A DNA stretch of 41,597 bases. It comes from a virus. Taxonomy: Duplodnaviria; Heunggongvirae; Uroviricota; Caudoviricetes. Under the pieces are notes generated by a model. It saw nothing but the letters and a program-made list of their open reading frames with translations. It did no database searches and was not told the DNA's origin. Below are positions 9,470-41,597 of this stretch, piece by piece. Where the stretch lies: IMG/VR virus record IMGVR_UViG_640753023_000007; one strand, 5' to 3'. Positions within the stretch are counted from its first letter, which is position 1. Each line of letters starts with the position of its first letter. A program made the translations under genes and the position numbers.

Positions 9470-9585
9470 TTTCATGTCCTTATTATTACGCTCTGTACTG
9501 GAACCATCCATGCACAATGTGTATTTTTACTTGTATTCGCAAAGTACATATTGTATTTTTTATTCGTGTTTACTATGGAGGGCAT
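9470..9585. promoter_or_regulatory. Divergent pRM/pR promoter and OR operator region
   Basis: 116-bp AT-rich intergenic region between divergent cI and cro; contains AAGTACATATTGTATTT (9542-9558), matching the reverse complement of the OL-region motif at 14 of 17 positions, plus a 9-bp palindrome CACAATGTG. Confidence 0.5.
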
Positions 9586-17947: not shown

Positions 17948-18241
17948 TTATTGTGAGCAATACACACGCGCTTCCAGCGGAGTATAAATGCCTAAAGTAA
18001 TAAAACCGAGCAATCCATTTACGAATGTTTGCTGGGTTTCTGTTTTAACAACATTTTCTGCACCACCACAAATTTTTGCTGCATCGACAGTTTTCTTCTG
18101 CCCAATTCCCGAAACGAAGAAATGATGGGTGATGGTTTCCTTTGGTGTTACTGCTGTAGGTTTGTTTCCAACAGTAAACGTCTGTTGAGCACATCCTGTA
18201 ATAAGCATTGCCAGAGCGGCAGAAAACAACATTTTTTTCAT
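17948..18241 (-). CDS. bor: Bor lipoprotein (serum resistance)
   Basis: Track ORF 17948-18289; start at MKKMLFSAALAMLITGCAQQ (lipobox LITGC); 97 aa; matches lambda Bor. Confidence 0.9.
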   Translation of the reverse strand: MKKMLFSAALAMLITGCAQQTFTVGNKPTAVTPKETITHHFFVSGIGQKKTVDAAKICGGAENVVKTETQQTFVNGLLGFITLGIYTPLEARVYCSQ

Positions 18242-19908: not shown

Positions 19909-20457
19909 ATGAAGGTTAATAAAAAGAGGCTTGCCGAAATTTTCAACGTGGACCCGCGGACGATTGAACGCTGGCAGTCTCAGGGACTCCCTTGCGCCTC
20001 CAAAGGTAGTAAGGGCATTGAATCTGTATTTGATACTGCCATGGCAATTCAGTGGTATGCGCAGAGGGAAACTGATATCGAAAACGAAAAGCTCCGCAAA
20101 GAACTGGCCGATTTGCGTGCGGCAGCGGAGTCAGATTTACAACCCGGCACCATTGACTATGAACGCTACCGGCTCACAAAAGCGCAGGCAGATGCGCAGG
20201 AACTGAAAAATGCCCGTGAAGACGGAGTAGTGCTGGAAACTGAACTGTTTACCTTCATTCTGCAACGTGTGGCACAGGAGATTTCGGGGATACTTGTGCG
20301 TGTGCCGTTGACATTACAGCGTAAATATCCGGACATTTCACCATCACACCTTGATGTGGTGAAAACTGAAATCGCGAAAGCCTCCAATGTTGCAGCTAAG
20401 GCCGGTGAAAACGTGGGCGGGTGGATCGATGATTTCAGACGCGCAGAAGGCAGCTAA
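19909..20457 (+). CDS. nu1: Terminase small subunit (Nu1 homologue)
   Basis: 182-aa [31 protein letters not shown]... with conserved middle region ([47 protein letters not shown]) matching lambda Nu1; N-terminal DNA-binding part divergent. Confidence 0.9.
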
Positions 20458-25631: not shown

Positions 25632-25667
25632 AGTCAGTGCTGACCATCAATAGGAGGTTTTTACAAT

Positions 25668-26015
25668 ATGGTGACGAAAACCATCACTGAACAGCGTGCG
25701 GAAGTACGTATTTTTGCCGGTAATGATCCGGCTCATACCGCCACAGGCAGCAGCGGGATTTCCTCGCCAACACCGGCACTGACGCCCCTGATGCTGGATG
25801 AAGCCACCGGGAAACTGGTGGTCTGGGACGGACAGAAAGCCGGTAGTGCGGTTGGCATACTGGTACTGCCGCTTGAAGGCACAGAGACGGCGCTGACGTA
25901 TTACAAGTCGGGAACCTTTGCGACGGAGGCAATCCACTGGCCTGAAAGTGTGGATGAACACAAAAAGGCCAACGCCTTTGCTGGCAGTGCCCTGAGTCAC
26001 GCGGCGCTGCCGTAA
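25668..26015 (+). CDS. D: Head decoration protein D
   Basis: 115-aa ORF; NDPAHTATGS, TPLMLDEATGKLVVWDG and YYKSGTF match lambda gpD. Confidence 0.9.
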   Translation: MVTKTITEQRAEVRIFAGNDPAHTATGSSGISSPTPALTPLMLDEATGKLVVWDGQKAGSAVGILVLPLEGTETALTYYKSGTFATEAIHWPESVDEHKKANAFAGSALSHAALP

Positions 26016-26072
26016 CACGTTATCAGGCCACCGCGGTGGCCTGACTGATTTCTGAATGAAAGGAACTGATTT

Positions 26073-27101
26073 ATGGGATTGTTTACGACCCGCCAGTTAC
26101 TCGGTTATACCGAACAAAAAGTTAAATTTCGTGCGCTGTTTCTGGAGCTGTTTTTCCGCCGTACGGTGAATTTCCATACCGAAGAGGTGATGCTGGACAA
26201 AATTACCGGAAAAACGCCGGTGGCGGCCTATGTCTCCCCGGTTGTTGAAGGAAAAGTGCTGCGTCATCGTGGTGGTGAAACCCGCGTGTTGCGTCCGGGC
26301 TACGTCAAGCCGAAACACGAATTTAATTACCAGCAGGCGGTTGAGCGCCTTCCTGGTGAAGATCCATCTCAACTGAATGATCCGGCTTACCGCCGTCTGC
26401 GTATCATTACCGATAACCTCAAACAGGAAGAGCACGCGATTGTCCAGGTGGAAGAAATGCAGGCGGTAAATGCTGTGTTGTATGGCAAATACACCATGGA
26501 AGGAGACCAGTTCGAGAAAATTGAGGTCGATTTTGGCAGGTCGACGAAGAATAACATCACTCAGGGTAGTGGTAAGGAGTGGTCAAAACAGGATCGTGAC
26601 ACGTTCGATCCTACACATGATATTGACCTCTACTGCGACCTGGCCAGCGGTCTTGTGAATATTGCCATTATGGACGGTACCGTCTGGCGTCTTCTGAATG
26701 GTTTTAAGCTGTTCCGCGAAAAACTGGATACCCGTCGCGGTTCAAATTCTCAACTCGAAACGGCAGTGAAAGATCTGGGCGCAGTGGTGTCCTTCAAGGG
26801 GTATTACGGCGATCTGGCCATTGTGGTGGCGAAAACGTCTTATATAGCAGAAGACGGTACCGAAAAACGTTATCTTCCAGATGGCATGCTGGTTCTGGGG
26901 AATACTGCTGCAGATGGGATCCGTTGTTACGGTGCCATTCAGGATGCTCAGGCGTTGTCCGAAGGTGTGGTGGCCTCTTCCCGTTATCCGAAACACTGGC
27001 TGACGGTAGGGGATCCCGCCCGTGAATTTACCATGACGCAGTCCGCGCCGCTGATGGTGTTGCCGGACCCGGATGAGTTTGTGGTGGTACAGGTGAAATA
27101 A
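26073..27101 (+). CDS. E: Major capsid protein E
   Basis: 342-aa ORF; extensive match to lambda gpE (PGYVKPKHE, QVEEMQAVNAVLYGKYTM, KLDTRRGSNSQLETAVKDLG, GDPAREFTMTQSAPLM). Confidence 0.95.
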   Translation: MGLFTTRQLLGYTEQKVKFRALFLELFFRRTVNFHTEEVMLDKITGKTPVAAYVSPVVEGKVLRHRGGETRVLRPGYVKPKHEFNYQQAVERLPGEDPSQLNDPAYRRLRIITDNLKQEEHAIVQVEEMQAVNAVLYGKYTMEGDQFEKIEVDFGRSTKNNITQGSGKEWSKQDRDTFDPTHDIDLYCDLASGLVNIAIMDGTVWRLLNGFKLFREKLDTRRGSNSQLETAVKDLGAVVSFKGYYGDLAIVVAKTSYIAEDGTEKRYLPDGMLVLGNTAADGIRCYGAIQDAQALSEGVVASSRYPKHWLTVGDPAREFTMTQSAPLMVLPDPDEFVVVQVK

Positions 27102-27109
27102 TCCGTGAG

Positions 27110-27138
27110 CGGGGGCGAAATGCCCCCGTGTCTTTTTT
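27110..27138 (+). terminator. Candidate intrinsic terminator / attenuator after the major capsid gene
   Basis: 7-bp GC stem CGGGGGC-(GAAAT)-GCCCCCG followed by TGTCTTTTTTCA, beginning 9 nt after the E stop. Confidence 0.55.
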
Positions 27139-27152
27139 CACAGGGGGCTGAT

Positions 27153-27527
27153 ATGGCAACGAAAGAGCAAAATCTGAAACGGCTTGATGAACTGGCCCTG
27201 ATTCTGGGGCGTGAGCCGGATATATCCGGGAGTGCCGCAGAGATAGCGCAGCGGGTGGCAGAATGGGAAGAGGAAATGCAGTCATCCGGCGATGATGTAC
27301 AGGTTATGAATATGGATATCCGGGAGCGGGAAACCGCGGCTCATGATGTTCGTGAGGAAACATCCGGCGCGTTAACGCGCATCAGAGTTCTGACCTGCCT
27401 CCATCTCTGTGGCGTTGATGGTGAAACGGGGGAATCCGTTGAGCTTGCGGATGTTGGTCGGGTGATTCTGATTATGTCCTCAGATGCAAAAACACACGTT
27501 GATGGTGGAATGGCTGTTTATGCGTGA
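27153..27527 (+). CDS. FI: DNA packaging protein FI-like
   Basis: Track ORF 27105-27527; start at MATKEQNLKRL preceded by GGGGG; assigned by position between E and FII; sequence diverges from lambda FI as I recall it. Confidence 0.55.
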   Translation: MATKEQNLKRLDELALILGREPDISGSAAEIAQRVAEWEEEMQSSGDDVQVMNMDIRERETAAHDVREETSGALTRIRVLTCLHLCGVDGETGESVELADVGRVILIMSSDAKTHVDGGMAVYA

Positions 27528-27873
27528 TTTTCAGAATGCCTTTGATGCCGCCCTTGCCGGGGTGGACAGTACGATTGTTGAAGTGATGGGCATCAGTGCG
27601 CAGTTCACCTCCGGTGCACAGCGTGGCGGCGAGGTTCATGGCGTTTTTGACGATCCGGAGTCGCTGGGTTTTGCCAGTAGTGGGATCCGTATTGAAGGAA
27701 GTAACCCGTCATTATTTGTGCTTACGGATACGGTTTGTGCTGTACGGCGTGGTGACACGCTGACCATTAACGGCGAGATGTTCTGGGTGGACCGTGTTTC
27801 TCCGGATGACGGAGGGAGTTGTTATCTCTGGCTCAACCGGGGGCAACCACCTGCCGCCAGCCGTCGCCGCTGA
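27520..27873 (+). CDS. FII: Head completion protein FII
   Basis: Track ORF 27484-27873; internal start MRDFQNAFDAALAG gives 117 aa matching lambda FII (WVDRVSPDDGGSCYLWL). Confidence 0.9.
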   Translation: MRDFQNAFDAALAGVDSTIVEVMGISAQFTSGAQRGGEVHGVFDDPESLGFASSGIRIEGSNPSLFVLTDTVCAVRRGDTLTINGEMFWVDRVSPDDGGSCYLWLNRGQPPAASRRR

Positions 27874-27884
27874 AAGGGGGATGT

Positions 27885-28463
27885 ATGGCCATAAAAGGTC
27901 TTGAGCAGGCCGTTGAAAACCTCAGCCGTATCAGCAAAACGGCAGTGCCTGGTGCCGCCGCAATGGCCATTAACCGCGTTGCTTCATCCGCGATATCGCA
28001 GTCGGCGTCACTGGTTGCCCGTGAGACAAAGGTACGCCGGAAACTGGTAAAGGAAAGGGCCAGGCTGAAAAGGGCCACGGTCAAAAATCCGCAGGCCAGA
28101 ATCAAAGTTAACCGGGGGGATTTGCCCGTAATCAGGCTGGGTAACGCGCGGGTTGTCCTGTCCCGACGCAGGCGTCGTAAAAAGGGGCAGCGTTCATCCC
28201 TGAAAGGTGGCGGCAGCGTGCTTGTGGTGGGAAACCGTCGTATTCCCGGCGCGTTTATTCAGCAACTGAAAAATGGCCGGTGGCATGTCATGCAGCGTGT
28301 GGCCGGGAAAAACCGTTACCCCATTGATGTGGTGAAAATCCCGATGGCGGTGCCGCTGACCACGGCGTTTAAACAGAATATTGAGCGGATACGGCGTGAG
28401 CGTCTTCCGAAAGAGCTGGGCTATGCGCTGCAGCATCAACTGAGAATGGTAATAAAGCGATGA
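27885..28463 (+). CDS. Z: Tail completion protein Z
   Basis: Track ORF 27819-28463; start MAIKGLEQAVENLSRISKTAVPGAAAMAINRV matches lambda Z, 192 aa. Confidence 0.9.
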   Translation: MAIKGLEQAVENLSRISKTAVPGAAAMAINRVASSAISQSASLVARETKVRRKLVKERARLKRATVKNPQARIKVNRGDLPVIRLGNARVVLSRRRRRKKGQRSSLKGGGSVLVVGNRRIPGAFIQQLKNGRWHVMQRVAGKNRYPIDVVKIPMAVPLTTAFKQNIERIRRERLPKELGYALQHQLRMVIKR

Positions 28464-28855
28464 AACATACTGAACTCCGTGCAGCCGTACTGGATGCACT
28501 GGAGAAGCATGACACCGGGGCGACGCTTTTTGATGGTCGCCCTGCTGTTTTTGATGAGGAAGATTTTCCGGCAATTGCCGTTTATCTCACCGGCGCTGAA
28601 TACACGGGCGAAGAGCTGGACAGCGATACCTGGCAGGCGGAGCTGCATATTGAAGTTTTCCTGCCTGCTCAGGTGCCGGATTCAGAGCTGGATTCGTGGA
28701 TGGAGTCCCGGATTTATCCGGTGATGAGCGATATCCCGGCACTGTCAGATTTGATCACCAGTATGGTGGCCAGTGGCTATGACTACCGGCGCGACGATGA
28801 TGCGGGCCTGTGGAGTTCAGCCGATCTGACTTATGTCATTACCTATGAAATGTGA
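28460..28855 (+). CDS. U: Tail terminator protein U
   Basis: 131-aa [57 protein letters not shown] matching lambda U; ATGA overlap with Z. Confidence 0.9.
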
Positions 28856-28862
28856 GGACGAT

Positions 28863-29603
28863 ATGCCAACACCAAATCCTCGGGCACCGGTGAAAGGGGC
28901 CGGGACCACACTGTGGGTTTATAACGGGAGCGGCGACCCTTATGCAAACCCGCTTTCAGACAATGACTGGTCGCGTCTGGCAAAAATTAAAGACCTGACG
29001 CCCGGCGAACTGACCGCTGAGTCCTATGACGACAGTTATCTCGATGATGAAGATGCGGACTGGACCGCGACCGGGCAGGGGCAGAAATCCGCCGGAGATA
29101 CCAGCTTCACGCTGGCGTGGATGCCCGGAGAGCAGGGGCAGCAGGCGCTGCTGGCGTGGTTTAATGAAGGTGATACCCGTGCCTATAAAATCCGCTTCCC
29201 GAACGGCACGGTCGATGTGTTCCGTGGCTGGGTCAGCAGTATCGGTAAGGCGGTGACGGCGAAGGAAGTGATCACCCGTACGGTGAAGGTCACCAATGTG
29301 GGCCGTCCGTCAATGGCAGAAGATCGCAGTACGGTGACGGCGGCAACCGGTATGACCGTGACGCCTGCCAGCTCCTCGGTGGTGAAAGGGCAGAGCACCA
29401 CGCTGACCGTGGCCTTCCAGCCGGAGGGCGCAACTGACAAGAGCTTCCGTGCGGTGTCAGCGGATAAAACAAAAGCCACCGTGTCGGTCAGTGGTATGAC
29501 CATCACCGTGAACGGCGTTGCTGCAGGCAAGGTCAACATTCCGGTTGTATCCGGTAATGGTGAACTTGCTGCGGTTGCAGAAATCACTGTCACCGACAGT
29601 TAA
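28863..29603 (+). CDS. V: Major tail protein V
   Basis: Track ORF 28833-29603; start [20 protein letters not shown] preceded by GAGGA; 246 aa matching lambda V including C-terminal Ig-like region. Confidence 0.95.
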
Positions 29604-29618
29604 TCCGGAGAGTCAGCG

Positions 29619-30041
29619 ATGTTCCTGAAAACCGAATCATTTGAACATAACGGCGTGACCGTCACGCTTTCTGAACTGTCAGCCCTGCAGCGTATTGAGC
29701 ATCTCGCCCTGATGAAACAGCAGGCAGAACAGGCGGAGTCAGACAGCAACCGGCAGGTTACTGTGGAAGACGCCATCAGAACCGGTGCTTTTGTGGTGGC
29801 GATGTCCCTGTGGCATAACCATCCGCAGAAGACAAAGCAGCCTTCCATGAATGAAGCCGTTAAACAGATTGAGCAGGAAGTGCTTACCACCTGGCCCGCG
29901 GAGGCAATTTCTCATGCTGAAAACGTGGTGTACCGGCTGTCCGGTATGTATGGGTTTGTGGTGAATGATGCCCCTGACCAGGCAGAGGACTCCGGGCCTG
30001 CAGAGCCTGTTTCTGCGGGAAAGTGTTCGACGGTGAGCTGA
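29619..30041 (+). CDS. G: Tail assembly chaperone G
   Basis: 140-aa ORF matching lambda G; slippery heptamer GGGAAAG near its 3-prime end. Confidence 0.9.
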   Translation: MFLKTESFEHNGVTVTLSELSALQRIEHLALMKQQAEQAESDSNRQVTVEDAIRTGAFVVAMSLWHNHPQKTKQPSMNEAVKQIEQEVLTTWPAEAISHAENVVYRLSGMYGFVVNDAPDQAEDSGPAEPVSAGKCSTVS

Positions 30042-30457
30042 GTTTTGCCCTGAAACTGGCGCGAGAGATGGGGCGACCTGACTGGCGCGCCATGCTTGCC
30101 GGGATGTCATCCACGGAGTATGCCGACTGGCACCGCTTTTACAGTACCCATTATTTTCATGATGTTCTGCTGAATATGCACTTTTCCGGGCTGACGTACA
30201 CTGTGCTCAGCCTGTTTTTCAGCGATCCGGATATGCATCCGCTGGATTTCAGTTTGCTGAACCGGCGTGAGGATGACGAAGAGCCTGAAGATGATGTGCT
30301 GATGCAGAAAGCGGCAGGGCTTACCGGAGGCGTCCGCTTTGACCCGGACGGAAATGAAGTTATCCCCGCTTCCCCGGATATGGCGGGCATGACGGAGGAT
30401 GACGTAATGCTGATGACAGTATCAGAAGGGATCGCAGGAGGAGTCCGGTATGGCTGA
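29619..30457 (+). CDS. T: Tail assembly chaperone G-T fusion via programmed -1 ribosomal frameshift
   Basis: Slippery site G GGA AAG at 30017-30023; the -1 frame continues (VFDGELSFALKLAREMGRPDW...) to 30457, matching lambda gpT. Confidence 0.85.
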
Positions 30458-33011
30458 ACCGGTAGGCGATCTGGTCGTTGATTTAAGTCTGGATGCGGCC
30501 AGATTTGACGAGCAGATGGCCAGAGTCAGGCGTCATTTTTCCGGTACGGAAAGTGATGCGAAAAAAACAGCGGCAGTCGTTGAACAGTCGCTGAGCCGAC
30601 AGGCGCTGGCTGCACAGAAAGCGGGGATTTCCGTCGGGCAGTATAAAGCCGCCATGCGTATGCTGCCTGCACAGTTCACCGACGTGGCCACGCAGCTTGC
30701 AGGCGGGCAAAGCCCGTGGCTGATCCTGCTGCAACAGGGTGGTCAGGTTAAGGACTCCTTCGGCGGGATGATCCCCATGTTCCGGGGGCTTGCCGGTGCG
30801 ATCACCCTGCCGATGGTCGGGGCCACCTCGCTGGCGGTGGCGACCGGTGCGCTGGCGTATGCCTGGTATCAGGGTAACTCAACCCTGTCCGATTTCAACA
30901 AAACGCTGGTCCTTTCCGGCAATCAGTCGGGTCTGACGGCAGATCGTATGCTGGTCCTGTCCAGAGCCGGGCAGGCGGCAGGGCTGACGTTTAACCAGAC
31001 CAGCGAGTCACTCAGCGCACTGGTTAAGGCGGGAGTAAGCGGTGAGGCTCAGATTGCATCCATCAGCCAGAGTGTGGCGCGTTTCTCCTCTGCATCCGGC
31101 GTGGAGGTGGACAAGGTCGCTGAAGCCTTCGGGAAGCTGACCACTGACCCGACGTCGGGGCTGACGGCGATGGCGCGCCAGTTCCATAACGTAACGGCGG
31201 AGCAGATTGCGTATGTTGCTCAGTTGCAGCGTTCCGGCGATGAATCCGGGGCATTGCAGGCGGCGAACGAGGCCGCAACGAAAGGGTTTGATGACCAGAC
31301 CCGACGCCTGAAAGAGAACATGGGCACGCTGGAAACCTGGGCAGACAGGACAGCACGGGCATTCAAATCCATGTGGGATGCGGTGCTGGATATTGGTCGT
31401 CCTGATACCGCTCAGGAGATGCTGATTAAGGCAGAGGCTGCGTTTAAGAAAGCGGACGACATCTGGAATCTGCGCAAGGATGATTATTTTGTTAACGATG
31501 AAGCGCGGGCGCGTTACTGGGATGATCGTGAAAAGGCCCGTCTTGCGCTTGAAGCCGCCCGAAAGAAGGCTGAACAGCAGAGTCAACAGGACAAAAATGC
31601 GCAGCAGCAGAGCGATACCGAAGCATCACGGCTGAAATATACCGAAGAGGCGCAGAAGGCTTACGAACGGCTGCAGACACCGCTGGAGAAATATACCGCC
31701 CGTCAGGAAGAACTGAACAAGGCACTGAAAGACGGGAAAATCCTGCAGGCAGATTACAACACGCTGATGGCGGCGGCGAAAAAGGATTATGAAGCGACGC
31801 TGAAAAAGCCGAAACAGTCCGGCGTGAAGGTGTCTGCGGGCGATCGTCAGGAAGACAGTGCTCATGCTGCCCTGCTGACGCTTCAGGCTGAACTCCGGAC
31901 GCTGGAGAAGCATGCCGGAGCAAATGAGAAAATCAGCCAGCAGCGCCGGGATTTGTGGAAGGCGGAGAGTCAGTTCGCGGTACTGGAGGAGGCGGCGCAA
32001 CGTCGCCAGCTGTCTGCACAGGAGAAATCCCTGCTGGCGCATAAAGATGAGACGCTGGAGTACAAACGCCAGCTGGCTGCACTTGGCGACAAGGTTACGT
32101 ATCAGGAGCGCCTGAACGCGCTGGCGCAGCAGGCGGATAAATTCGCACAGCAGCAACGGGCAAAACGGGCCGCTATTGATGCGAAAAGCCGGGGGCTGAC
32201 TGACCGGCAGGCAGAACGGGAAGCCACGGAACAGCGCCTGAAGGAACAGTATGGCGATAATCCTCTGGCGCTGAATAACGTCATGTCAGAGCAGAAAAAG
32301 ACCTGGGCGGCTGAAGACCTGCTTCGCGGGAACTGGATGGCAGGCCTGAAGTCCGGCTGGAGTGAGTGGGAAGAGAGTGCCACGGACAGTATGTCGCAGG
32401 TTAAAAGTGCTGCCACGCAGACCTTTGATGGTATTGCGCAGAATATGGCGGCGATGCTGACCGGCAGTGAACAGAACTGGCGCAGCTTCACCCGTTCCGT
32501 GCTGTCCATGATGACAGAAATTCTGCTTAAGCAGGCAATGGTGGGGATTGTCGGGAGTATCGGCAGCGCTATTGGCGGGGCTGTTGGTGGCGGCGCATCC
32601 GCGTCAGGCGGTACAGCCATTCAGGCCGCTGCGGCGAAACTCCATTTTGCAACCGGAGGATTTACGGGAACCGGCGGCAAATATGAGCCAGCGGGGATTG
32701 TTCACCGTGGTGAATTTGTCTTCACGAAGGAGGCAACCAGCCGGATTGGCGTGGGAAATCTCTACCGGCTGATGCGCGGCTATGCCACCGGCGGTTATGT
32801 CGGTGGCACCGGAAGTCCGGCGCAAATGCGGCGTTCAGAGGGTATCAGGTTTGAGCAGAACAACAACGTGGTGATTCAGAACGACGGTACGAATGGTCTG
32901 CCAGGTCCACAGATGATGAAGGCGGTGTATGACATGGCCCGCAAGGGTGCCCGTGATGAAATCCAGGCACAGATGCGCGATGGTGGTCTGTTCTCCGGAG
33001 GTGGACGATGA
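30450..33011 (+). CDS. H: Tail tape measure protein H
   Basis: 853-aa ORF, same length as lambda gpH, with matching N-terminus (MAEPVGDLVVDLSLDAARFDEQMARV). Confidence 0.95.
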   Translation: MAEPVGDLVVDLSLDAARFDEQMARVRRHFSGTESDAKKTAAVVEQSLSRQALAAQKAGISVGQYKAAMRMLPAQFTDVATQLAGGQSPWLILLQQGGQVKDSFGGMIPMFRGLAGAITLPMVGATSLAVATGALAYAWYQGNSTLSDFNKTLVLSGNQSGLTADRMLVLSRAGQAAGLTFNQTSESLSALVKAGVSGEAQIASISQSVARFSSASGVEVDKVAEAFGKLTTDPTSGLTAMARQFHNVTAEQIAYVAQLQRSGDESGALQAANEAATKGFDDQTRRLKENMGTLETWADRTARAFKSMWDAVLDIGRPDTAQEMLIKAEAAFKKADDIWNLRKDDYFVNDEARARYWDDREKARLALEAARKKAEQQSQQDKNAQQQSDTEASRLKYTEEAQKAYERLQTPLEKYTARQEELNKALKDGKILQADYNTLMAAAKKDYEATLKKPKQSGVKVSAGDRQEDSAHAALLTLQAELRTLEKHAGANEKISQQRRDLWKAESQFAVLEEAAQRRQLSAQEKSLLAHKDETLEYKRQLAALGDKVTYQERLNALAQQADKFAQQQRAKRAAIDAKSRGLTDRQAEREATEQRLKEQYGDNPLALNNVMSEQKKTWAAEDLLRGNWMAGLKSGWSEWEESATDSMSQVKSAATQTFDGIAQNMAAMLTGSEQNWRSFTRSVLSMMTEILLKQAMVGIVGSIGSAIGGAVGGGASASGGTAIQAAAAKLHFATGGFTGTGGKYEPAGIVHRGEFVFTKEATSRIGVGNLYRLMRGYATGGYVGGTGSPAQMRRSEGIRFEQNNNVVIQNDGTNGLPGPQMMKAVYDMARKGARDEIQAQMRDGGLFSGGGR

Positions 33012-33337
33012 AAACCTTCCGCTGGAAAGTGAAACCCGGGATGGATGTGACATCGGCTCCTTCCGTCAGGGAGGTGCGCTTTGGTGATGGCTATTCCCAG
33101 CGTGCGCCTGCCGGGCTGAACGCTGACCTGAAAACGTACAGCGTGACGCTGTCTGTCTCCCGTGAGGAGGCCACGGCGCTGGAGTCGTTTCTGGCTGAGC
33201 ACGGGGGCTGGAAGGCCTTTCTGTGGACGCCGCCTTATGGTTACAGGCAGATAAAGGTGACCTGCGCAAAATGGTCGTCGCGGGTCAGTATGCTGCGTGT
33301 TGAGTTCAGCGCAGAGTTTGAACAGGTGGTGAACTGA
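33008..33337 (+). CDS. M: Minor tail protein M
   Basis: 109-aa ORF MKTFRWKVKPGMDVTSAPSVREVRFGDGYSQRAPAGLNADLKTYSVTLSV matching lambda M; ATGA overlap with H. Confidence 0.9.
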   Translation: MKTFRWKVKPGMDVTSAPSVREVRFGDGYSQRAPAGLNADLKTYSVTLSVSREEATALESFLAEHGGWKAFLWTPPYGYRQIKVTCAKWSSRVSMLRVEFSAEFEQVVN

Positions 33338-34035
33338 TGCAGGATATCCGGCAGGAAACATTGAATGAATGCACCCGTGCGGAGCAGTCGGCCAGCGTGG
33401 TGCTCTGGGAAATCGATCTGACAGAGGTCGGTGGAGAACGTTATTTTTTCTGTAATGAGCAGAACGAAAAAGGTGAGCCGGTCACCTGGCAGGGGCGACA
33501 GTATCAGCCGTATCCCATTCAGGGGAGTAGTTTTGAACTGAATGGCAAAGGCACCAGTACGCGCCCCACGCTGACGGTTTCTAACCTGTACGGTATGGTC
33601 ACCGGGATGGTGGAAGATCTGCAGAGTCTGGTCGGCGGAACGGTGGTCAGGCGTAAGGTTTACGCCCGTTTTCTGGATGCGGTGAACTTCGTCAACGGAA
33701 ACAGCGACGCCGATCCGGAGCAGGAGGTGATCAGCCGCTGGCGCATCGAGCAGTGCAGCGAACTGAGTGCGGTCAGTGCCTCCTTTGTACTGTCCACACC
33801 GACGGAAACGGATGGTGCCGTTTTTCCGGGGCGCATCATGCTGGCTAATACCTGCACCTGGACCTATCGCGGTGATGAGTGCGGTTATCACGGTCCGGCG
33901 GTCGCGGATGAATATGATCAGCCGACTTCCGATATCACGAAGGATAAATGCAGCAAATGCCTGAGCGGCTGTAAGTTTCGCAATAACGTCGGCAACTTTG
34001 GCGGCTTCCTTTCCATTAACAAACTTTCGCAGTAA
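33337..34035 (+). CDS. L: Minor tail protein L
   Basis: 232-aa ORF matching lambda L, including C-terminal Cys cluster (CSKCLSGCKFRNN). Confidence 0.9.
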   Translation: MQDIRQETLNECTRAEQSASVVLWEIDLTEVGGERYFFCNEQNEKGEPVTWQGRQYQPYPIQGSSFELNGKGTSTRPTLTVSNLYGMVTGMVEDLQSLVGGTVVRRKVYARFLDAVNFVNGNSDADPEQEVISRWRIEQCSELSAVSASFVLSTPTETDGAVFPGRIMLANTCTWTYRGDECGYHGPAVADEYDQPTSDITKDKCSKCLSGCKFRNNVGNFGGFLSINKLSQ

Positions 34036-34040
34036 ATCCC

Positions 34041-34784
34041 ATGACAGAGACAGAATCAGCGATTCTGGCGCATGCCCGGCGATGTGCGCCAGCGGAGTCG
34101 TGCGGCTTCGTGGTGAGAGCGCCGGAGGGGGAAAGATATTTTCCCTGCGTGAATATCTCCGGTGAGCCGGAGGCGTATTTCCGGATGGCTCCGGAGGACT
34201 GGCTGCAGGCAGAGATGCAGGGTGAGATTGTGGCGCTGGTCCACAGTCATCCCGGTGGTCTGCCCTGGCTGAGTGAGGCCGACCGGCGGCTGCAGGTGCA
34301 GAGTGATTTGCCGTGGTGGCTGGTCTGCCGGGGGGCGATTCATAAGTTCCGCTGTGTGCCGCATCTCACCGGGCGGCGCTTTGAGCACGGGGTGACGGAC
34401 TGTTACACGCTGTTCCGGGACGCTTACCATCTGGCGGGGATTGAGATGCCGGACTTTCATCGTGAGGATGACTGGTGGCGTAACGGCCAGAATCTCTATC
34501 TTGATAATCTGGAGGCCACAGGGCTGTATCAGGTGCCGTTGTCAGCGGCGCAGCCGGGCGATGTGCTGCTGTGCTGCTTTGGTTCATCGGTGCCGAATCA
34601 TGCCGCTATTTACTGTGGTGACGGCGAGCTGCTGCACCATATTCCTGAACAACTGAGTAAACGAGAGAGGTATACCGACAAATGGCAGCGACGCACACAC
34701 TCCCTCTGGCGTCACCGGGCATGGCGCGCATCTGCCTTTACGGGGATTTACAACGATTTGGCCGCCGCATCGACCTTCGTGTGA
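34041..34784 (+). CDS. K: Tail assembly protein K (JAB/MPN and NlpC/P60-like domains)
   Basis: 247-aa ORF; HSHPGG motif (JAB-type) and Cys/His peptidase-like region; matches lambda K. Confidence 0.9.
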   Translation: MTETESAILAHARRCAPAESCGFVVRAPEGERYFPCVNISGEPEAYFRMAPEDWLQAEMQGEIVALVHSHPGGLPWLSEADRRLQVQSDLPWWLVCRGAIHKFRCVPHLTGRRFEHGVTDCYTLFRDAYHLAGIEMPDFHREDDWWRNGQNLYLDNLEATGLYQVPLSAAQPGDVLLCCFGSSVPNHAAIYCGDGELLHHIPEQLSKRERYTDKWQRRTHSLWRHRAWRASAFTGIYNDLAAASTFV

Positions 34785-35353
34785 AAACGGGGGCTGAAGC
34801 CATCCGCGCACTGGCCACACAGCTCCCGGTGTTTCGTCAGAAACTGAGCGACGGCTGGTATCAGGTACGGATTGCCGGGCGGGACGTCAGCACGTCCGGG
34901 TTAACGGCGCAGTTACATGAGACTCTGCCTGATGGCGCTGTGATTCATATTGTTCCCAGAGTCGCCGGGGCCAAGTCAGGTGGCGTATTCCAGATTGTCC
35001 TGGGGGCTGCCGCCATTGCCGGATCATTCTTTACCGCCGGAGCCACCCTTGCAGCATGGGGGGCAGCCATTGGGGCCGGTGGTATGACCGGCATCCTGTT
35101 TTCTCTCGGTGCCAGTATGGTGCTCGGTGGTGTGGCGCAGATGCTGGCACCGAAAGCCAGAACTCCCCGTACACAGACAACGGATAACGGCAAACAGAAC
35201 ACCTATTTCTCCTCACTGGATAACATGGTTGCCCAGGGCAATGTTCTGCCGGTTCTGTACGGTGAAATGCGCGTGGGGTCACGCGTGGTTTCTCAGGAGA
35301 TCAGCACGGCAGACGAAGGGGATGGTGGTCAGGTTGTGGTGATTGGTCGCTGA
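34682..35353 (+). CDS. I: Tail assembly protein I
   Basis: 223-aa ORF matching lambda I (ubiquitin-like N-terminus, Gly/Ala-rich hydrophobic region); the true start may be an internal Met, since the ORF overlaps the K 3-prime end by about 100 nt. Confidence 0.85.
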   Translation: MAATHTLPLASPGMARICLYGDLQRFGRRIDLRVKTGAEAIRALATQLPVFRQKLSDGWYQVRIAGRDVSTSGLTAQLHETLPDGAVIHIVPRVAGAKSGGVFQIVLGAAAIAGSFFTAGATLAAWGAAIGAGGMTGILFSLGASMVLGGVAQMLAPKARTPRTQTTDNGKQNTYFSSLDNMVAQGNVLPVLYGEMRVGSRVVSQEISTADEGDGGQVVVIGR

Positions 35354-35413
35354 TGCAAAATGTTTTATGTGAAACCGCCTCCGGGCGGTTTTATCGTTTA
35401 TGGAGCATGAGGA

Positions 35414-38400
35414 ATGGGTAAAGGCAGCAGTAAGGGGCATACCCCGCGCGAAGCGAAGGACAACCTGAAATCATCCCAGATGCTGAGCGTGATAGACGCC
35501 ATCAGCGAAGGGCCGGTTGAAGGTCCGGTGGATGGATTAAAAAGCGTGCTGCTGAACAGTACGCCGGTGCTGGACAGTGAGGGGAATACCAATATATTCG
35601 GCGTCACGGTGGTGTTCCGGGCCGGTGAGCAGGAGCAGACTCCGCCGGAGGGATTTGAATCCTCCGGCTCCGAGACGGTGCTCGGTACAGAAGTGAAATA
35701 TGACACGCCGATCACCCGGACCATCACGTCGGCAAACATTGACCGTCTGCGTTTTACTTTCGGCGTGCAGGCACTGGTGGAAACCACCTCAAAGGGGGAC
35801 AGGAATCCATCGGAAGTCCGCCTGCTGGTTCAGATTCAACGTAACGGTGGCTGGGTGACGGAAAAAGACATCACCATTAAGGGCAAAACCACGTCGCAGT
35901 ATCTGGCCTCGGTGGTGGTGGATAACCTGCCGCCGCGCCCGTTTAATATCCGGATGCGCAGGATGACGCCGGACAGCACCACAGACCAGTTGCAGAACAA
36001 AACGCTCTGGTCGTCATACACCGAAATCATCGATGTGAAACAGTGCTACCCGAACACGGCACTGGTCGGCGTACAGGTGGACTCGGAGCAGTTCGGCAGC
36101 CAGCAGGTGAGCCGTAATTATCATCTTCGCGGGCGCATTCTGCAGGTGCCGTCGAACTATAACCCGCAGACGCGGCAATACAGCGGTATCTGGGACGGAA
36201 CGTTTAAGCCAGCATACAGCAACAACATGGCCTGGTGTCTGTGGGATATGCTGACCCATCCGCGCTACGGCATGGGGAAACGTCTTGGTGCGGCAGATGT
36301 GGATAAATGGGCGCTGTATGTCATCGGCCAGAATTGCGACCAGTCAGTGCCGGACGGCTTTGGCGGCACGGAGCCGCGCATCACCTGTAATGCGTACCTG
36401 ACCACACAGCGCAAGGCGTGGGATGTGCTCAGTGATTTTTGCTCGGCGATGCGCTGTATGCCGGTATGGAACGGGCAGACGCTGACATTCGTGCAGGACC
36501 GACCGTCGGATAAGGTGTGGACCTATAACCGCAGTAATGTGGTGATGCCGGATGATGGCGCGCCGTTCCGCTACAGCTTCAGCGCCCTGAAAGACCGCCA
36601 TAATGCCGTTGAGGTGAACTGGATTGACCCGGATAACGGCTGGGAGACGGCGACAGAGCTTGTGGAGGACACGCAGGCCATTGCCCGTTACGGTCGTAAC
36701 GTCACGAAGATGGATGCCTTTGGCTGTACCAGCCGGGGGCAGGCACACCGCGCCGGGCTGTGGCTGATTAAAACGGAGCTGCTGGAAACGCAGACCGTGG
36801 ACTTCAGCGTGGGTGCAGAAGGGCTTCGCCATGTACCGGGTGATGTCATTGAAATCTGTGATGATGACTATGCGGGGATCAGCATCGGCGGGCGCGTGCT
36901 GGCGGTGAACAACCAGACGCGGACACTGACGCTCGACCGTGAAATCACGCTGCCATCCTCCGGCACCACGCTGATAAGCCTGGCTGACGGACAGGGGAAT
37001 CCGGTCAGCGTGGAGGTCCAGTCCGTCACCGACGGCGTGAAGGTAAAAGTGAGCCGTGTTCCTGACGGCGTTGCAGAATACAGCGTGTGGGGGCTGAAGT
37101 TGCCAACGTTGCGCCAGCGCCTGTTCCGCTGTGTGAGTATCCGTGAGAACGATGACGGCACGTATGCCATCACTGCCGTGCAGCATGTACCGGAAAAAGA
37201 GGCCATCGTGGATAACGGGGCGCACTTTGACGGCGACCAGAGCGGCACGGTGAATGGTGTCACGCCGCCAGCGGTGCAGCACCTGACTGCCGAAGTCACC
37301 GCAGACAGCGGGGAATATCAGGTGCTGGCGCGCTGGGACACGCCGAAGGTGGTGAAGGGGGTGAGCTTTATGCTTCGCCTGACCGTGGCAGCGGATGACG
37401 GCAGTGAGCGGCTGGTCAGCACGGCCCGGACGACGGAAACCACATACCGCTTCAGGCAACTGGCGCTGGGGAACTACAGGCTGACAGTCCGGGCGGTAAA
37501 TGCGTGGGGGCAGCAGGGCGATCCGGCATCGGTATCGTTCCGGATTGCCGCACCGGCAGCGCCGTCGCAGATTGAGCTGACACCGGGGTATTTTCAGATA
37601 ACCGCCACGCCGCATCTTGCGGTTTATGATCCGACGGTACAGTTTGAGTTCTGGTTCTCGGAAAAGCGGATTGCGGATATCAGGCAGGTTGAAACCACAG
37701 CACGCTATCTTGGCACGGCGCTGTACTGGATAGCCGCCAGTATCAATATCAAACCGGGCCATGATTATTATTTTTACATCCGCAGTGTGAACACCGTTGG
37801 CAAATCGGCATTTGTGGAGGCTGTTGGCCAGCCGAGTGATGATGCATCCGGCTATCTGAATTTTTTCAAAGGAGAGATAGGGAAAACCCATCTGGCTCAG
37901 GAGTTGTGGACGCAGATTGATAACGGTCAGCTTGCGCCTGACCTGGCTGAAATCAGGACGTCCATTACGGGTGTCAGCAATGAAATCACGCAGACCGTCA
38001 ATAAGAAACTGGAAGACCAGAGTGCAGCGATCCAGCAGATACAGAAGGTTCAGGTTGATACAAATAATAACCTGAACAGCATGTGGGCTGTGAAGCTGCA
38101 GCAGATGCAGGACGGACGCCTTTATATCGCGGGTATTGGTGCCGGTGTTGAGAATACTCCCTGACGGTATGCAGAGTCAGGTGCTGCTGGCGGCGGACAG
38201 GATTGCGATGATTAATCCTGCGAATGGCAACACAAAGCCGATGTTTGTTGGGCAGGGCGATCAGATATTCATGAACGAAGTGTTCCTGAAATATCTGACG
38301 GCTCCCACCATTACCAGCGGTGGCAATCCCCCAACGTTTTCACTGACACCTGATGGTCGACTTTCTGCGAAAAATGCGGATATCAGCGGTAACGTGAACG

Positions 38401-38897
38401 CGAACTCCGGGACGCTCAACAACGTCACGATTAATCAGAACTGTCGGATTCTGGGAAAACTGTCAGCTAACCAGATTGAAGGTGATATTGTCAAAACGGT
38501 GGGAAAAGCCTTTCCGAGAAATGGCAGTTATGCCAGCGGTACAATAACGGTCACTGTGTACGATGACCAGGCTTTTGACCGTCAGATAGTAGTCCCCCCC
38601 GTTCTGTTTCGTGGGGGTAAGCATGAAAACTTCAACAGCAACAACCAACAGTCATACTGGTATTCAACCTGTAAGCTGCAGGTACTGAAGAACGGACAGG
38701 AAATCTTTCAGCAACCCGCGACGGATGTCAGCAGGGTATTTTCATCAGTCATTGATATGCCTGCCGGACACGGCCATGTCACCCTGACTTTCAATGTTTC
38801 TTCATATGGTGCTAATAACTGGACGCCAACGACCAGTATCAGCGACCTTCTTGTTGTTGTGATGAAGAAATCTACAGCCGGTATCAGTATCAGTTGA
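35414..38897 (+). pseudogene. J: Tail tip / host specificity protein J, split by an apparent +1 frameshift at 38159-38161
   Basis: Frame A ORF 35414-38164 ends ...[10 protein letters not shown] then TGA; the protein continues in another frame as [23 protein letters not shown]... to 38897; an extra C in the CCC run at 38159-38161 explains the shift. Confidence 0.8.
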
Positions 38898-38915
38898 ATT
38901 TTATAACCCAGATAC

Positions 38916-38944
38916 GGGCGCCAGAAATGGCGCCTTTTTTATTT
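38916..38944 (+). terminator. Intrinsic terminator after J
   Basis: Stem GGCGCC-(AGAAAT)-GGCGCC followed by TTTTTTATTT, about 20 nt after the J stop. Confidence 0.65.
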
Positions 38945-38955
38945 GTGGAGTGAAT

Positions 38956-41016
38956 ATGGCAGTACAGATTTCAGGCGTGCTGAAAGACGGTGCAGGAAAA
39001 CCGATACAGAACTGCACCATTCAGCTCAAAGCAAAACGTAACAGCACCACGGTTGTGGTGAACACGGTGGCCTCAGAAAATCCGGATGAAGCCGGACGTT
39101 ACAGCATGGATGTCGAGTATGGCCAGTACAGCGTTATCCTGCTGGTTGAAGGTTTTCCGCCTTCACATGCCGGGGCCATCACCGTGTATGAGGATTCTAA
39201 GCCGGGGACATTGAATGATTTTCTGGGCGCTGCAACAGAAGATGATGTTCGTCCGGAGGCACTGTATCGTTTTGAAAAGATGGTGGAAGAGGTGGCACGC
39301 AACGCTGAAGCCGCCTCTCAGAGCGCAGCGGCAGCAAAGAAATCAGAAACAGCAGCGGCATCGTCCAGGAATGCGGCGAAAACATCAGAGACGAATGCAG
39401 GTAACAGCGCGAAAGCGGCAGCTTCTTCAAAAACAGCCGCACAAAACGCAGCAACAGCGGCAGAACGTTCAGAGACAAATGCCCGTGCGTCAGAAGAAGC
39501 CTCCGCAGACAGTGAAGAGGCTTCCCGCCGTAATGCAGAGTCAGCCGCTGAAAATGCCGGAGTCGCCACCACAAAAGCGCGGGAGGCCGCAGCAGACGCA
39601 ACAAAGGCCGGGCAGAAAAAGGATGAGGCTCTGTCGGCAGCGACACGGGCTGAAAAGGCGGCAGACCGCGCAGAAGTCGCAGCGGAAGTGACTGCAGAGC
39701 CCTATGCGAATATAGTGCCGCCGCTGCCTGATGTGTGGATACCGTTTAACGATTCACTGGATATGATTGCGGGTTTTTCTCCGGGCTATAAAAAAATAGC
39801 TATTGGTGACGATGTGGTTCAGGTCGCCAGTGATAAACAGGTTAATTTCAGTCGCGCATCAACGGCAACATATATCAACAAATCTGGCGAACTGAAAACG
39901 GCGGAAATTAATGAGCCGCGATTTGAGTGTGATGGCCTGCTTATTGAGGGACAAAGAACGAACTACATGCTCAATTCGGAAAGTCCAGCCAGCTGGGGGA
40001 AGTCATCAAACATGGATGTGCCCGAAACCGGGACAGATAGTTTTGGTTTTACTTATGGAAAGTTTGTCTGCAACGATTCTCTGGTTGGGCAAACTTCGGC
40101 TATTAATATGGCATCAATTGCTGCAACAAAGTCAGTTGATGTCTCAGGCGATAACAAGTACGTGACAACCTCATGCCGTTTTAAAACAGAACGACAGGTA
40201 AGGTTACGTATACGGTTTGATAAGTATGATGGTAGTGCAACAACTTTTCTTGGCGATGCGTACATTGATACGCAAACGCTTGAAATTAATATGACAGGTG
40301 GGGCTGCCGGCAGAATTACGGCACGAGTCAGGAAGGATAAGACCACAGGCTGGATTTTTGCAGAGGCAACGATTCAGGCAATTGATGGTGAGTTAAAAAT
40401 AGGCTCTCAGATACAGTATTCTCCTGAGCGGGGTGGGGCAACAGTATCTGGTGACTATATTTATCTTGCCACCCCACAAGTAGAGAATGGGCCGTGTGTA
40501 TCATCATTTATTATTTCAGGAGGCAGCGCAACGACAAGAGCCAGTGATTTGGTTAGTATCCCCACCAGAAATAATCTTTATAAGTTACCATTTACTTTTT
40601 TACTTGAGATTCATAAAAACTGGGATATTGCACCAAACGCCGCACCCCGCGTGTGGGATATAGCAGCAGCCAATACCGGGCAATCAGCAATTGCAGCAAT
40701 CAACAGAGGTAGTGGTAAGTTATATATGAGTCTGTCAAACCCTTCAGGCTTGTATGTTAATAGCGCAGCGACAGATGTATTTGCAGAGAAAACCACATTT
40801 GGATGTATTGCAAAAGCTGATGGTCACTTTCATGTGGTGACAAATGGTAAAGCGGTTAATGAAGTTTATTGTGAATATAATGGTGTGACCGCTGATAAAA
40901 ATATCCGATTTGGAGGGCAGACGAATACTGGAGAACGACATCTGTTTGGCCATATTCGCAATTTCCGCATATGGCATAAAGAATTAAATGACAGGCAATT
41001 AAAAGAGGTCGTATGA
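38956..41016 (+). CDS. stf: Side tail fibre protein (Stf-like)
   Basis: Track ORF 38950-41016 starts with GTG; ATG at 38956 preceded by GGAG; N-terminal 120 aa match lambda Stf (AVQISGVLKDGAGKPIQNCTIQLKAKRNSTTVVVN), followed by an Ala/Ser/Thr-rich low-complexity segment and an AT-rich C-terminal domain. Confidence 0.85.
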   Translation: MAVQISGVLKDGAGKPIQNCTIQLKAKRNSTTVVVNTVASENPDEAGRYSMDVEYGQYSVILLVEGFPPSHAGAITVYEDSKPGTLNDFLGAATEDDVRPEALYRFEKMVEEVARNAEAASQSAAAAKKSETAAASSRNAAKTSETNAGNSAKAAASSKTAAQNAATAAERSETNARASEEASADSEEASRRNAESAAENAGVATTKAREAAADATKAGQKKDEALSAATRAEKAADRAEVAAEVTAEPYANIVPPLPDVWIPFNDSLDMIAGFSPGYKKIAIGDDVVQVASDKQVNFSRASTATYINKSGELKTAEINEPRFECDGLLIEGQRTNYMLNSESPASWGKSSNMDVPETGTDSFGFTYGKFVCNDSLVGQTSAINMASIAATKSVDVSGDNKYVTTSCRFKTERQVRLRIRFDKYDGSATTFLGDAYIDTQTLEINMTGGAAGRITARVRKDKTTGWIFAEATIQAIDGELKIGSQIQYSPERGGATVSGDYIYLATPQVENGPCVSSFIISGGSATTRASDLVSIPTRNNLYKLPFTFLLEIHKNWDIAPNAAPRVWDIAAANTGQSAIAAINRGSGKLYMSLSNPSGLYVNSAATDVFAEKTTFGCIAKADGHFHVVTNGKAVNEVYCEYNGVTADKNIRFGGQTNTGERHLFGHIRNFRIWHKELNDRQLKEVV

Positions 41017-41291
41017 AAGATTTAACTTTGAAGTTTCATGACAAACTGCAGTTTAAGGCCTTCCTGTCATCTCTTGACTGGGAGGAGGATGAAGACCTCC
41101 AGAATAAACTGTTAGTCGATGAAATTGGTTTCACCTACACAGAAACAGGGGTAACAGAAGAGGGAGAACCTGTCTGTGTCCGGAATGACGGTTATTTTGT
41201 CAACATTCGCATTCTTGATGACTTGTTTGATGTTTCTGTATTCTCTGATTATGTCGTGGAGCTGGAAACACCGCTTCGGGAATGGAGCTGA
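41013..41291 (+). CDS. Hypothetical acidic protein (92 aa) directly downstream of stf
   Basis: ORF with ATGA overlap on the stf stop; acidic (DWEEDEDLQNKLLVDE); occupies the slot where a tail fibre assembly gene is expected but does not resemble lambda Tfa. Confidence 0.4.
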   Translation: MKDLTLKFHDKLQFKAFLSSLDWEEDEDLQNKLLVDEIGFTYTETGVTEEGEPVCVRNDGYFVNIRILDDLFDVSVFSDYVVELETPLREWS

Positions 41292-41303
41292 AAGGAGGAA
41301 ATA

Positions 41304-41597
41304 ATGGATATAAGCCCCTTACTTCATGCGCTTTGTGCTGTGGCTGCGCAGATACTGGTTGGTCTTTTTACCGGAAACTGGGCTTACGGAGCGATAGCCG
41401 GTTGTACGTTCTTCATTGCGCGTGAACATACCCAGGCAGAATATCGCTGGATTGAAATGTTCGGGCATGGCAAGCGAATGAATATGCCGTGGTGGGGCGG
41501 TTTTGATCCGCGAGCTTGGGATGTGGCAAGCCTGATGGATTTTGCTGTGCCGGTGGTGGCGTGTCTGCTGGTCTGGCTGTTGGTTAATCGTGGGTGA
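41304..41597 (+). CDS. Hypothetical small membrane protein (97 aa)
   Basis: ORF preceded by AAGGAGG; two hydrophobic segments (LLHALCAVAAQILVGLFTGNWAYGAIAGCTFFIA and LMDFAVPVVACLLVWLLV); stop codon at the window end. Confidence 0.4.
   Translation: MDISPLLHALCAVAAQILVGLFTGNWAYGAIAGCTFFIAREHTQAEYRWIEMFGHGKRMNMPWWGGFDPRAWDVASLMDFAVPVVACLLVWLLVNRG

What the first reader, a model, noticed from the sequence alone, without database searches (positions are those of the whole stretch)
38156..38165. Apparent +1 frameshift splitting the tail tip protein gene J
The J reading frame ends at TGA (38162-38164) directly after ...GAGVENTP, and the protein sequence continues without gap in another frame ([23 protein letters not shown]...) to 38897. 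One extra C in the CCC run at 38159-38161 accounts for it. If real, the prophage would make a truncated J lacking the receptor-binding end and be defective for adsorption; if a homopolymer error, J is intact.
Basis: seen in the sequence. Interest (0 to 1): 0.6.

Follow-up and report, generated by a model that had tools for sequence, protein, structure and literature searches.

The report
One-base frameshift in prophage J gene
The tail-tip gene J of a phage-21-like prophage is split by one extra C that occurs only in the 2006 E. coli APEC O1 genome record, so it is either a sequencing error or a strain-private pseudogene and is ordinary either way.

Summary
J (35414-38164, 916 codons) stops at TGA 38162-38164. 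The rest of J continues in the +1 frame to 38897. CFT073 and phage 21 read ACT-CCT-GAC where the window reads ACT-CCC-TGA. Removing one C gives a 1160-aa J identical to CFT073 WP_000515327.1.

The window is the icd-integrated, phage-21-like prophage of E. coli APEC O1 (CP000468.1). The extra C was found nowhere else:
- 0 of 916 complete-genome records that carry this stretch;
- 0 viral or metagenome contigs, against 9 and 24 with the wild-type sequence;
- both split products are recorded only for APEC O1.

My best reading is a base-call or assembly error in the 2006 record (about 0.65). The insertion sits in a 2-base run, next to a column that differs between J paralogues.

The main rival is a real, strain-private insertion (about 0.33). 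It would remove the receptor-binding domain. It also creates CCC_UGA_C, a known +1 "shifty stop", and a +1 slip there gives back exactly wild-type J, so the defect would be leaky.

It is not a programmed frameshift, because no homologue shares it. The same record also lacks 91 bp covering cosQ and cosN, so as written this prophage cannot package its DNA. Interest is low.

The parts
35414..38164 (+). N-terminal part of tail-tip (host specificity) gene J: 916 codons plus a premature TGA. It is GenBank ABJ00567.1 of E. coli APEC O1.
   Evidence: Pfam hits: FNIII-A_GpJ, Phage-tail_3, Ig_J, Ig_J_second, and the first 44 positions of Phage_Tail_Tip.
38159..38161 (+). CCC run holding the one extra base. 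Relatives read CC here (ACT-CCT-GAC). This is CP000468.1 position about 1217013.
   Evidence: Alignments. None of 916 complete-genome records carries it. It is also absent from viral, metagenome and species-representative contigs.
38162..38164 (+). Premature TGA stop created by the insertion, followed by C at 38165. Together with the run it forms CCC_UGA_C.
38159..38165 (+). CCC_UGA_C 'shifty stop'. If peptidyl-tRNAPro re-pairs from CCC to CCU (+1), the next codon is GAC and the wild-type J sequence is restored. This step is inferred, not shown.
   Evidence: An in-silico +1 shift gives a protein identical to CFT073 J. CCC_UGA is generally shift-prone at no more than about 2% in E. coli, and 15% in pheL (PMC3082878). 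There is no SD-like stimulator at RF2-type spacing.
38163..38897 (+). Remainder of J in the +1 frame (residues 917-1160 of intact J): the rest of the tail-tip fibre domain and the C-terminal receptor-binding domain. GenBank calls it ABJ00568.1, a separate 252-aa CDS starting at GTG 38139.
   Evidence: Pfam Phage_Tail_Tip positions 45-138 and Ig_GpJ_C.
36841..36841 (+). Second change in J private to this record: a synonymous GGC to GGT substitution. T is the allele of a divergent J homologue (Stx2a_WGPS6).
   Evidence: None of 1656 records has it. Homologue alignment.

Best explanation
The extra C is most likely an error in the deposited 2006 (Sanger-era, from my own knowledge) chromosome sequence of E. 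coli APEC O1 (CP000468.1). In the living strain, J would then be the same intact 1160-aa tail-tip protein found in every other copy of this phage-21-like prophage. A plausible route is a consensus or base-call mistake in a gene that exists as several paralogous copies per genome. Other J genes read ACC-CCT where this one reads ACT-CCT, and the record's ACT-C-CCT is what results if both the T and the C of that column are kept. What is shown: the insertion exists in the record, is unique to it, and is the only thing interrupting J. What is inferred: that it arose during sequencing or assembly rather than in the cell.
For: 1. Source. The window matches CP000468.1 exactly over 25414-41597.
2. Uniqueness among complete genomes. 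None of the 916 records that carry this 70-bp stretch has CCC.
3. Close relatives. APEC E16002 (O1:K1:H7) differs over window 19762-41597 only by this C and one synonymous base. The top scores of ZJ3920 and APEC E18006 over 20000-41597 fit the same two differences; that is my reading of the bit scores.
4. Other collections. The CCC 33-mer has no hit in viral, metagenome or species-representative contigs. The wild-type 32-mer has 9 viral and 24 metagenome hits, but none in the species-representative contigs, so that last collection is uninformative.
5. Protein records. In a 15-billion-protein collection the 916-aa product is recorded only for APEC O1, apart from one draft contig that simply ends after the wild-type CCT codon. 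The 252-aa product is on one contig only, and neither has a Logan or ENA source.
6. Position. The insertion lies in one of 525 two-base runs, although J has 40 runs of 4 or more bases, where real slippage would be favoured.
7. Paralogue pattern. J carries a second private change 1.3 kb upstream (36841), and both private bases match alleles of divergent J homologues.
8. Precedent. Public E. coli genomes of that period carry single-base frameshifts in essential genes that were judged to be sequencing errors, and the APEC O1 annotation was notably incomplete (PMC2617782).
9. The APEC O1 assembly is not in the current RefSeq complete-genome set used here (reason unknown).
Against: No reads were available, so nothing here is direct.
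- Sanger chemistry has no strong homopolymer bias, and CC to CCC is not a classic error type.
- No genome has ACTCCCGAC in the same 69-mer, so the paralogue-confusion route is only a lead. APEC O1's own J paralogues could not be examined.
- The same record has a 91-bp deletion centred on the terminase nicking site. That is hard to explain as a base-calling error and suggests this prophage copy really is damaged.
- Rousset et al. resequenced APEC O1 with Illumina. They reported only a new plasmid, whereas they explicitly reported many errors for another strain. That argues the reference is not riddled with errors.
Confidence: 0.65

Rival explanations
1. The insertion is real and private to the sequenced APEC O1 isolate, making J an early pseudogene in an already defective prophage. 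Most ribosomes would stop after residue 916, giving a J that lacks two thirds of the tail-tip fibre domain and the whole receptor-binding domain. Because the new sequence is CCC_UGA_C, a small share of ribosomes (probably no more than about 2%) would slip +1 on CCC/CCU and make exactly wild-type J. An AUG at 38169-38171, in the downstream frame and 4 nt past the stop, could also allow re-initiation of a 242-aa C-terminal piece. The defect would then be leaky rather than absolute.
For: - The same record lacks 91 bp covering cosQ and cosN (-49 to +42 around the phage 21 cos cut) while keeping cosB. This junction occurs in no other complete genome and looks like a repair scar at a terminase cut. 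That fits a prophage copy that no longer produces transmissible phage.
- Frameshifted or split J genes occur in other genomes, for example the 242-aa C-terminal fragment P0017 that starts at the same Met.
- The in-silico +1 shift restores CFT073 J exactly.
- CCC_UGA is documented as especially +1 shift-prone (PMC3082878).
Against: - It is unique to one 2006 record among more than 900 copies.
- With only one private substitution in 41.6 kb, a private indel in a 2-base run is a priori rarer than a sequencing error (rates from general knowledge).
- Losing cos or J does not spare the host from lysis, so selection would not favour these changes.
- There is no SD-like stimulator at 3-nt spacing, so any frameshifting would stay at background level.
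- Function of a split J is untested.
Confidence: 0.33
2. The site is a programmed +1 ribosomal frameshift, or a phase-variable switch, used by the phage to make two forms of J.
For: CCC_UGA followed by C resembles the RF2 (CUU_UGA_C) shift site. CCC_UGA is used for programmed frameshifting in tail genes of some Listeria phages (PMC3082878).
Against: - A programmed site must be conserved, and none of 916 homologous loci or any phage record has it.
- Phage 21 itself, a viable phage, has an uninterrupted J.
- There is no upstream SD-like stimulator at the required spacing.
- A 2-3 base run is far too short for slipped-strand phase variation.
Confidence: 0.02

Closest known systems
Tip attachment / host specificity protein J of phage 21 (OL657228.1, UMO75436.1) and of the icd-integrated prophages of B2 ExPEC E. 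coli (WP_000515327.1 in CFT073, ATCC 11775, APEC E16002)
   Same: After removing one C, the product is 100% identical to WP_000515327.1 and differs from phage 21 J at one residue. The synteny is the same (L, K, I, J, side tail fibre, then sitDCBA). The integration site next to icd is the same.
   Different: Only the window carries the extra C, so J is written as two ORFs of 916 and 252 aa.
Lambda gpJ (PDB 8iyk, 8xcj and others)
   Same: Same domain order and a strong sequence match: residues 1-835 to full-length gpJ, and 713-1159 to the gpJ C-terminal fragment. Pfam annotates the C-terminal domain as the receptor-binding domain.
   Different: The C-terminal region is a different allele, so the receptor is not established here. 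In the window it is interrupted after residue 916.
[quoted passage not shown]
   Same: The slippery P-site codon can re-pair in the +1 frame (CCC to CCU). It is followed by UGA and then C, which I recall from general knowledge to be a poor termination context.
   Different: There is no SD-like stimulator 3 nt upstream and no conservation. It was created by a single insertion in one record, so any frameshifting would be incidental.
Single-base frameshift errors in early finished bacterial genomes
   Same: An isolated one-base indel interrupts a gene that is intact in all relatives, in a 2006 assembly (compare PMC2617782).
   Different: Not verified by reads here.

Membership tests
Lambda-type tip attachment protein J | Domain series FNIII-A_GpJ, Phage-tail_3, Ig_J, Ig_J_second, Phage_Tail_Tip, Ig_GpJ_C | tested here: met
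   All six families score above their Pfam cut-offs on the repaired protein. In the window they are spread over the two ORFs.
Lambda-type tip attachment protein J | Position after the tail genes L, K and I, and before the side tail fibre gene | tested here: met
   Gene order in L004, CFT073 and phage 21.
Lambda-type tip attachment protein J | A single uninterrupted reading frame of about 1130-1165 codons | tested here: not met
   The window has 916 codons, then TGA, and the rest is in the +1 frame. All relatives examined are intact.
Programmed +1 ribosomal frameshift site | P-site codon whose tRNA can re-pair in the +1 frame, next to a slow A-site codon | tested here: met
   CCC_UGA_C at 38159-38165. 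A +1 shift gives wild-type J.
Programmed +1 ribosomal frameshift site | Conservation of the shift site among homologues | tested here: not met
   None of 916 genome records has it, and it is absent from phage, viral and metagenome collections.
Programmed +1 ribosomal frameshift site | Stimulatory element, such as an SD-like sequence 3 nt upstream as in prfB | tested here: not met
   The only candidates are GGTG at 11 and 17 nt upstream.
Programmed +1 ribosomal frameshift site | Measured frameshift product | not testable with these tools
   This needs a reporter assay or mass spectrometry.
Phase-variable homopolymer (contingency) locus | A long mononucleotide tract (typically 7 or more) with length variants among isolates | tested here: not met
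   The run is 2 bases in all relatives and 3 in one record.
Sequencing / assembly artefact | Confined to one assembly and absent from near-identical relatives | tested here: met
Sequencing / assembly artefact | Not supported by independent reads of the same strain | not testable with these tools
   A resequenced APEC O1 genome exists (GCA_902880315) but could not be reached. Look-ups of ORFs specific to this record found nothing.
Pseudogene of a decaying prophage | Other inactivating lesions in the same element | tested here: met
   A 91-bp deletion of cosQ and cosN, unique to this record.
Pseudogene of a decaying prophage | The lesion is inherited by related isolates | tested here: not met
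   No other genome carries it.

The most novel reading that the evidence does not exclude
The extra C is real, and the prophage escapes its own frameshift. The insertion happens to create CCC_UGA_C, so incidental +1 ribosomal slippage restores exactly wild-type J at a level of about a percent. That could be enough to build some functional tails, because each tail needs only three J chains (general knowledge of the lambda tail). This would be a natural example of a translationally corrected indel in a phage structural gene.
Probability: 0.2. Interest if true: 0.3.

Novelty: already known. Interest (0 to 1): 0.1.

Why it matters
It matters little beyond curation.

If the C is an error, ABJ00567.1 and ABJ00568.1 should be merged into one J protein. 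Users of the APEC O1 reference should also know that this prophage region carries several record-private differences.

If it is real, it only marks one isolate's copy of a very common ExPEC prophage as defective in adsorption. This prophage family carries iss, an ompC-like porin gene and, beyond the window, sitABCD. As written, the copy also lacks cos.

The one mildly instructive point is that the insertion creates a textbook +1 shifty stop. A truncation read from DNA need not mean complete loss of the protein.

Tried and rejected
- **Programmed frameshift or phase variation.** Rejected: no conservation, no stimulator, and the run is too short.
- **A second independent occurrence.** The exact-protein look-up returned a second contig (GCA_012777355.1). 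It is a draft contig that ends right after the wild-type CCT codon, so it is not the frameshift.
- **A simple paralogue with ACT-CCC-GAC in the same context.** This could have explained a consensus error, but none exists among complete genomes. More divergent homologues do read ACC-CCT or ACC-CCC, so the idea survives only as a lead.
- **Reaching the resequenced APEC O1 genome.** It is not in the RefSeq complete-genome set (searches find none of the private markers). Look-ups of two ORFs spanning the cos-deletion junction found nothing.
- **The 2007 APEC O1 genome paper.** It is not held in the library.
- **Touchon et al. supplementary tables.** They show that many APEC O1 genes were missing from the annotation, but the genes listed are complete, so this says nothing direct about sequencing errors.
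- **Chromosomal flank next to the prophage.** Its 6.5 kb shows no indels against APEC E16002, so there is no local sign of a generally error-ridden assembly.

Full report
**What is in the sequence**

The ORF 35414..38164 (+) encodes 916 residues ending ...GAGVENTP and stops at TGA 38162-38164. The +1 frame reads on from ...[23 protein letters not shown]... to a stop at 38895-38897. CFT073 and phage 21 differ from the window in this stretch by exactly one base. They read ACT-CCT-GAC where the window reads ACT-CCC-TGA. Removing one C gives a 3483-nt gene. Its 1160-aa product is identical to CFT073 J (WP_000515327.1) and differs from phage 21 J at one residue.

**What the gene is and what would be lost**

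The intact protein has the full lambda-J domain series. Phage_Tail_Tip covers residues 872-1000, and the receptor-binding domain Ig_GpJ_C covers 1038-1160. The protein matches solved lambda gpJ structures. The break after residue 916 cuts Phage_Tail_Tip at model position 44/45. It puts the rest of the fibre and the whole receptor-binding domain out of frame.

**Where the window comes from**

- The exact 916-aa product is on record for E. coli APEC O1, chromosome CP000468.1. That record is identical to the window over 25414-41597.
- The window runs from the integrase gene (1-1143, minus strand) to the last gene before sitD.
- It is a phage-21-like lambdoid prophage inserted next to icd, the phage 21 attachment site (PMC12803456).
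- The element is very common in B2 ExPEC strains. The region around the frameshift matches 3973 of 5426 complete genomes.

**How unusual the extra C is**

- None of the 916 complete-genome records that carry this 70-bp stretch has CCC; all best matches show the one-base gap.
- APEC E16002 (O1:K1:H7), compared base by base, differs from window 19762-41597 only by this C and one synonymous base. The scores of ZJ3920 and APEC E18006 over 20000-41597 fit the same two differences; that is my reading of the bit scores.
- No phage record has it.
- The CCC 33-mer has no exact match in the viral, metagenome or species-representative contig collections. The wild-type 32-mer has 9 viral and 24 metagenome matches, but none in the species-representative set, so that collection is uninformative.
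- Among about 15 billion proteins, the 916-aa product has two accessions. One is APEC O1 ABJ00567.1. The other is a partial protein from a draft contig that ends after the wild-type CCT codon, so it is a coincidence and not a second case.
- The 252-aa downstream product (ABJ00568.1) is on one contig only. Neither product has a Logan or ENA source.

**Other differences private to this record**

Compared with ATCC 11775 and APEC E16002, the 41.6-kb window shows four further points.

| Difference | Window position | How widely found |
|---|---|---|
| Synonymous GGC to GGT in J | 36841 | 0 of 1656 records |
| T6 instead of T7, between cI (8816-9511, minus strand) and cro (9586-9801) | 9550-9556 | 2 of 262 records |
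| 91-bp deletion | 19762/19763 | junction found in no complete genome |
| Ordinary substitutions shared with some relatives | various | not private |

Mapped on phage 21, the deletion spans -49 to +42 around the cos cut. It removes cosQ and cosN and leaves cosB R3, I1, R2 and R1.

**Real or error?**

Reads are needed for a firm answer, and I could not reach them. None of the record's private markers appears in the complete-genome set. Look-ups of ORFs that span the cos junction found nothing.

The indirect evidence leans towards error:
- The change is confined to one 2006 assembly.
- It lies in one of 525 two-base runs, although J has 40 runs of four or more bases, where real slippage is favoured.
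- J is a multi-copy gene family in these genomes, with a median of 2 and up to 6 matching places per genome.
- Both private changes in J fall on columns that differ between J homologues, and the private base is the homologue's allele. Lambda-like and Ayreon J read AAC-ACC-CCT, and Stx2a_WGPS6 J reads AAC-ACC-CCC. The window's ACT-C-CCT is what results if both the T and the C of that column are kept. T at 36841 is the Stx2a_WGPS6 allele.
- Genomes of that period are known to carry single-base frameshift errors, even in essential genes (PMC2617782).

Four points count against error:
- The paralogue idea is only a lead. No genome has ACTCCCGAC in the same 69-mer, and APEC O1's own paralogues were not seen.
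- The 6.5-kb chromosomal flank has no indels.
- Rousset et al. reported no large number of errors for APEC O1, whereas they did for another strain.
- The 91-bp cos deletion is hard to explain as a base-calling error. It suggests this prophage copy really is damaged.

I put error at about 0.65 and a real private mutation at about 0.33.

**If the insertion is real, how it would work**

Most ribosomes would terminate after residue 916, giving a J without its receptor-binding end.

The insertion also creates CCC_UGA_C:
- CCC_UGA is described as especially prone to +1 shifting. The level is generally no more than about 2% in E. coli and reaches 15% at the end of pheL. Some Listeria phages even use it in tail genes (PMC3082878).
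- C after UGA is, from my own knowledge, the weakest termination context in E. coli, and it is the context of the RF2 shift site.
- A +1 slip of tRNAPro from CCC to CCU puts GAC in the A site and yields a protein identical to wild-type J.
- There is no SD-like stimulator at the RF2 spacing, so only background slippage is expected.
- An in-frame AUG (38169-38171) lies 4 nt after the stop and could allow re-initiation of a 242-aa C-terminal piece. Whether a split J could assemble is unknown.

All of this is inference.

**Programmed frameshift and phase variation are excluded**

No homologue shares the site, phage 21 itself has an uninterrupted J, and the run is too short for phase variation.

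**Verdict**

It is either an error in an old reference sequence or a one-isolate pseudogene in a very common prophage. GenBank already shows it as two CDSs. The useful by-products are two cautions. First, this record's prophage also lacks cos. Second, a truncation inferred from DNA at a CCC_UGA site may be leaky.

Noticed in passing
window 19762/19763 (CP000468.1 about 1198616): The window lacks 91 bp present in all relatives examined. On phage 21 the missing piece spans -49 to +42 around the cos cut, so it removes cosQ and cosN (GGGCGGCGACCT) but keeps cosB R3, I1, R2, R1 and Nu1 (19909-20457). No complete E. coli genome has this junction. It is roughly centred on the terminase nicking site, which would fit a repaired terminase cut. 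As written, the prophage cannot package its DNA.
   Followed up: yes
window 9550-9556: A run of six T where relatives have seven, in the operator region between cI (8816-9511, minus strand) and cro (9586-9801). Only 2 of 262 complete genomes with this stretch share T6. Its effect on the promoters and operators is unknown.
   Followed up: partly
window 36841: A synonymous GGC to GGT change in J found in no other complete genome (0 of 1656 records). T is the base carried by a divergent J homologue (Stx2a_WGPS6). This hints at paralogue confusion in assembly or at gene conversion.
   Followed up: partly
L002 (phage 21) 7789-8520; L004 16276-19725, just beyond the window's end: The sitABCD iron/manganese transporter operon lies inside the phage 21 genome, downstream of the tail fibre genes. 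In these ExPEC strains it is therefore prophage cargo, and the prophage extends past the right end of the window to a duplicated icd fragment.
   Followed up: partly
window 17948-18241 (-), 15075-16157 (-): The prophage carries iss (increased serum survival lipoprotein) and an ompC-like porin gene as accessory genes near the lysis module. A TonB-family gene lies nearby in relatives.
   Followed up: no
L005 (GCA_012777355.1 contig AATFXS010000055.1) 1140-3887: This draft contig ends exactly after the wild-type CCT codon of J. Its partial product is therefore letter-for-letter the same as the frameshift-truncated 916-aa protein. It is a trap for exact-protein look-ups.
   Followed up: yes
window 38950-41016; L001 5056-7116; L006 10908-12968: The side tail fibre gene is one uninterrupted ORF (686-688 aa) in the window and in phage 21. 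RefSeq nevertheless annotates the near-identical APEC E16002 copy as an 'incomplete' N-terminal pseudogene plus a separate fibre-domain CDS. CFT073 carries a similar split annotation, which I did not compare base by base. This looks like an annotation quirk rather than a lesion.
   Followed up: partly
protein P0017 (242 aa, from a 4.70-Mb contig): Another genome encodes a separate C-terminal J fragment that begins at the same Met (MQSQVLL...) as the one just after the window's frameshift. J is therefore also interrupted nearby in at least one other strain.
   Followed up: no
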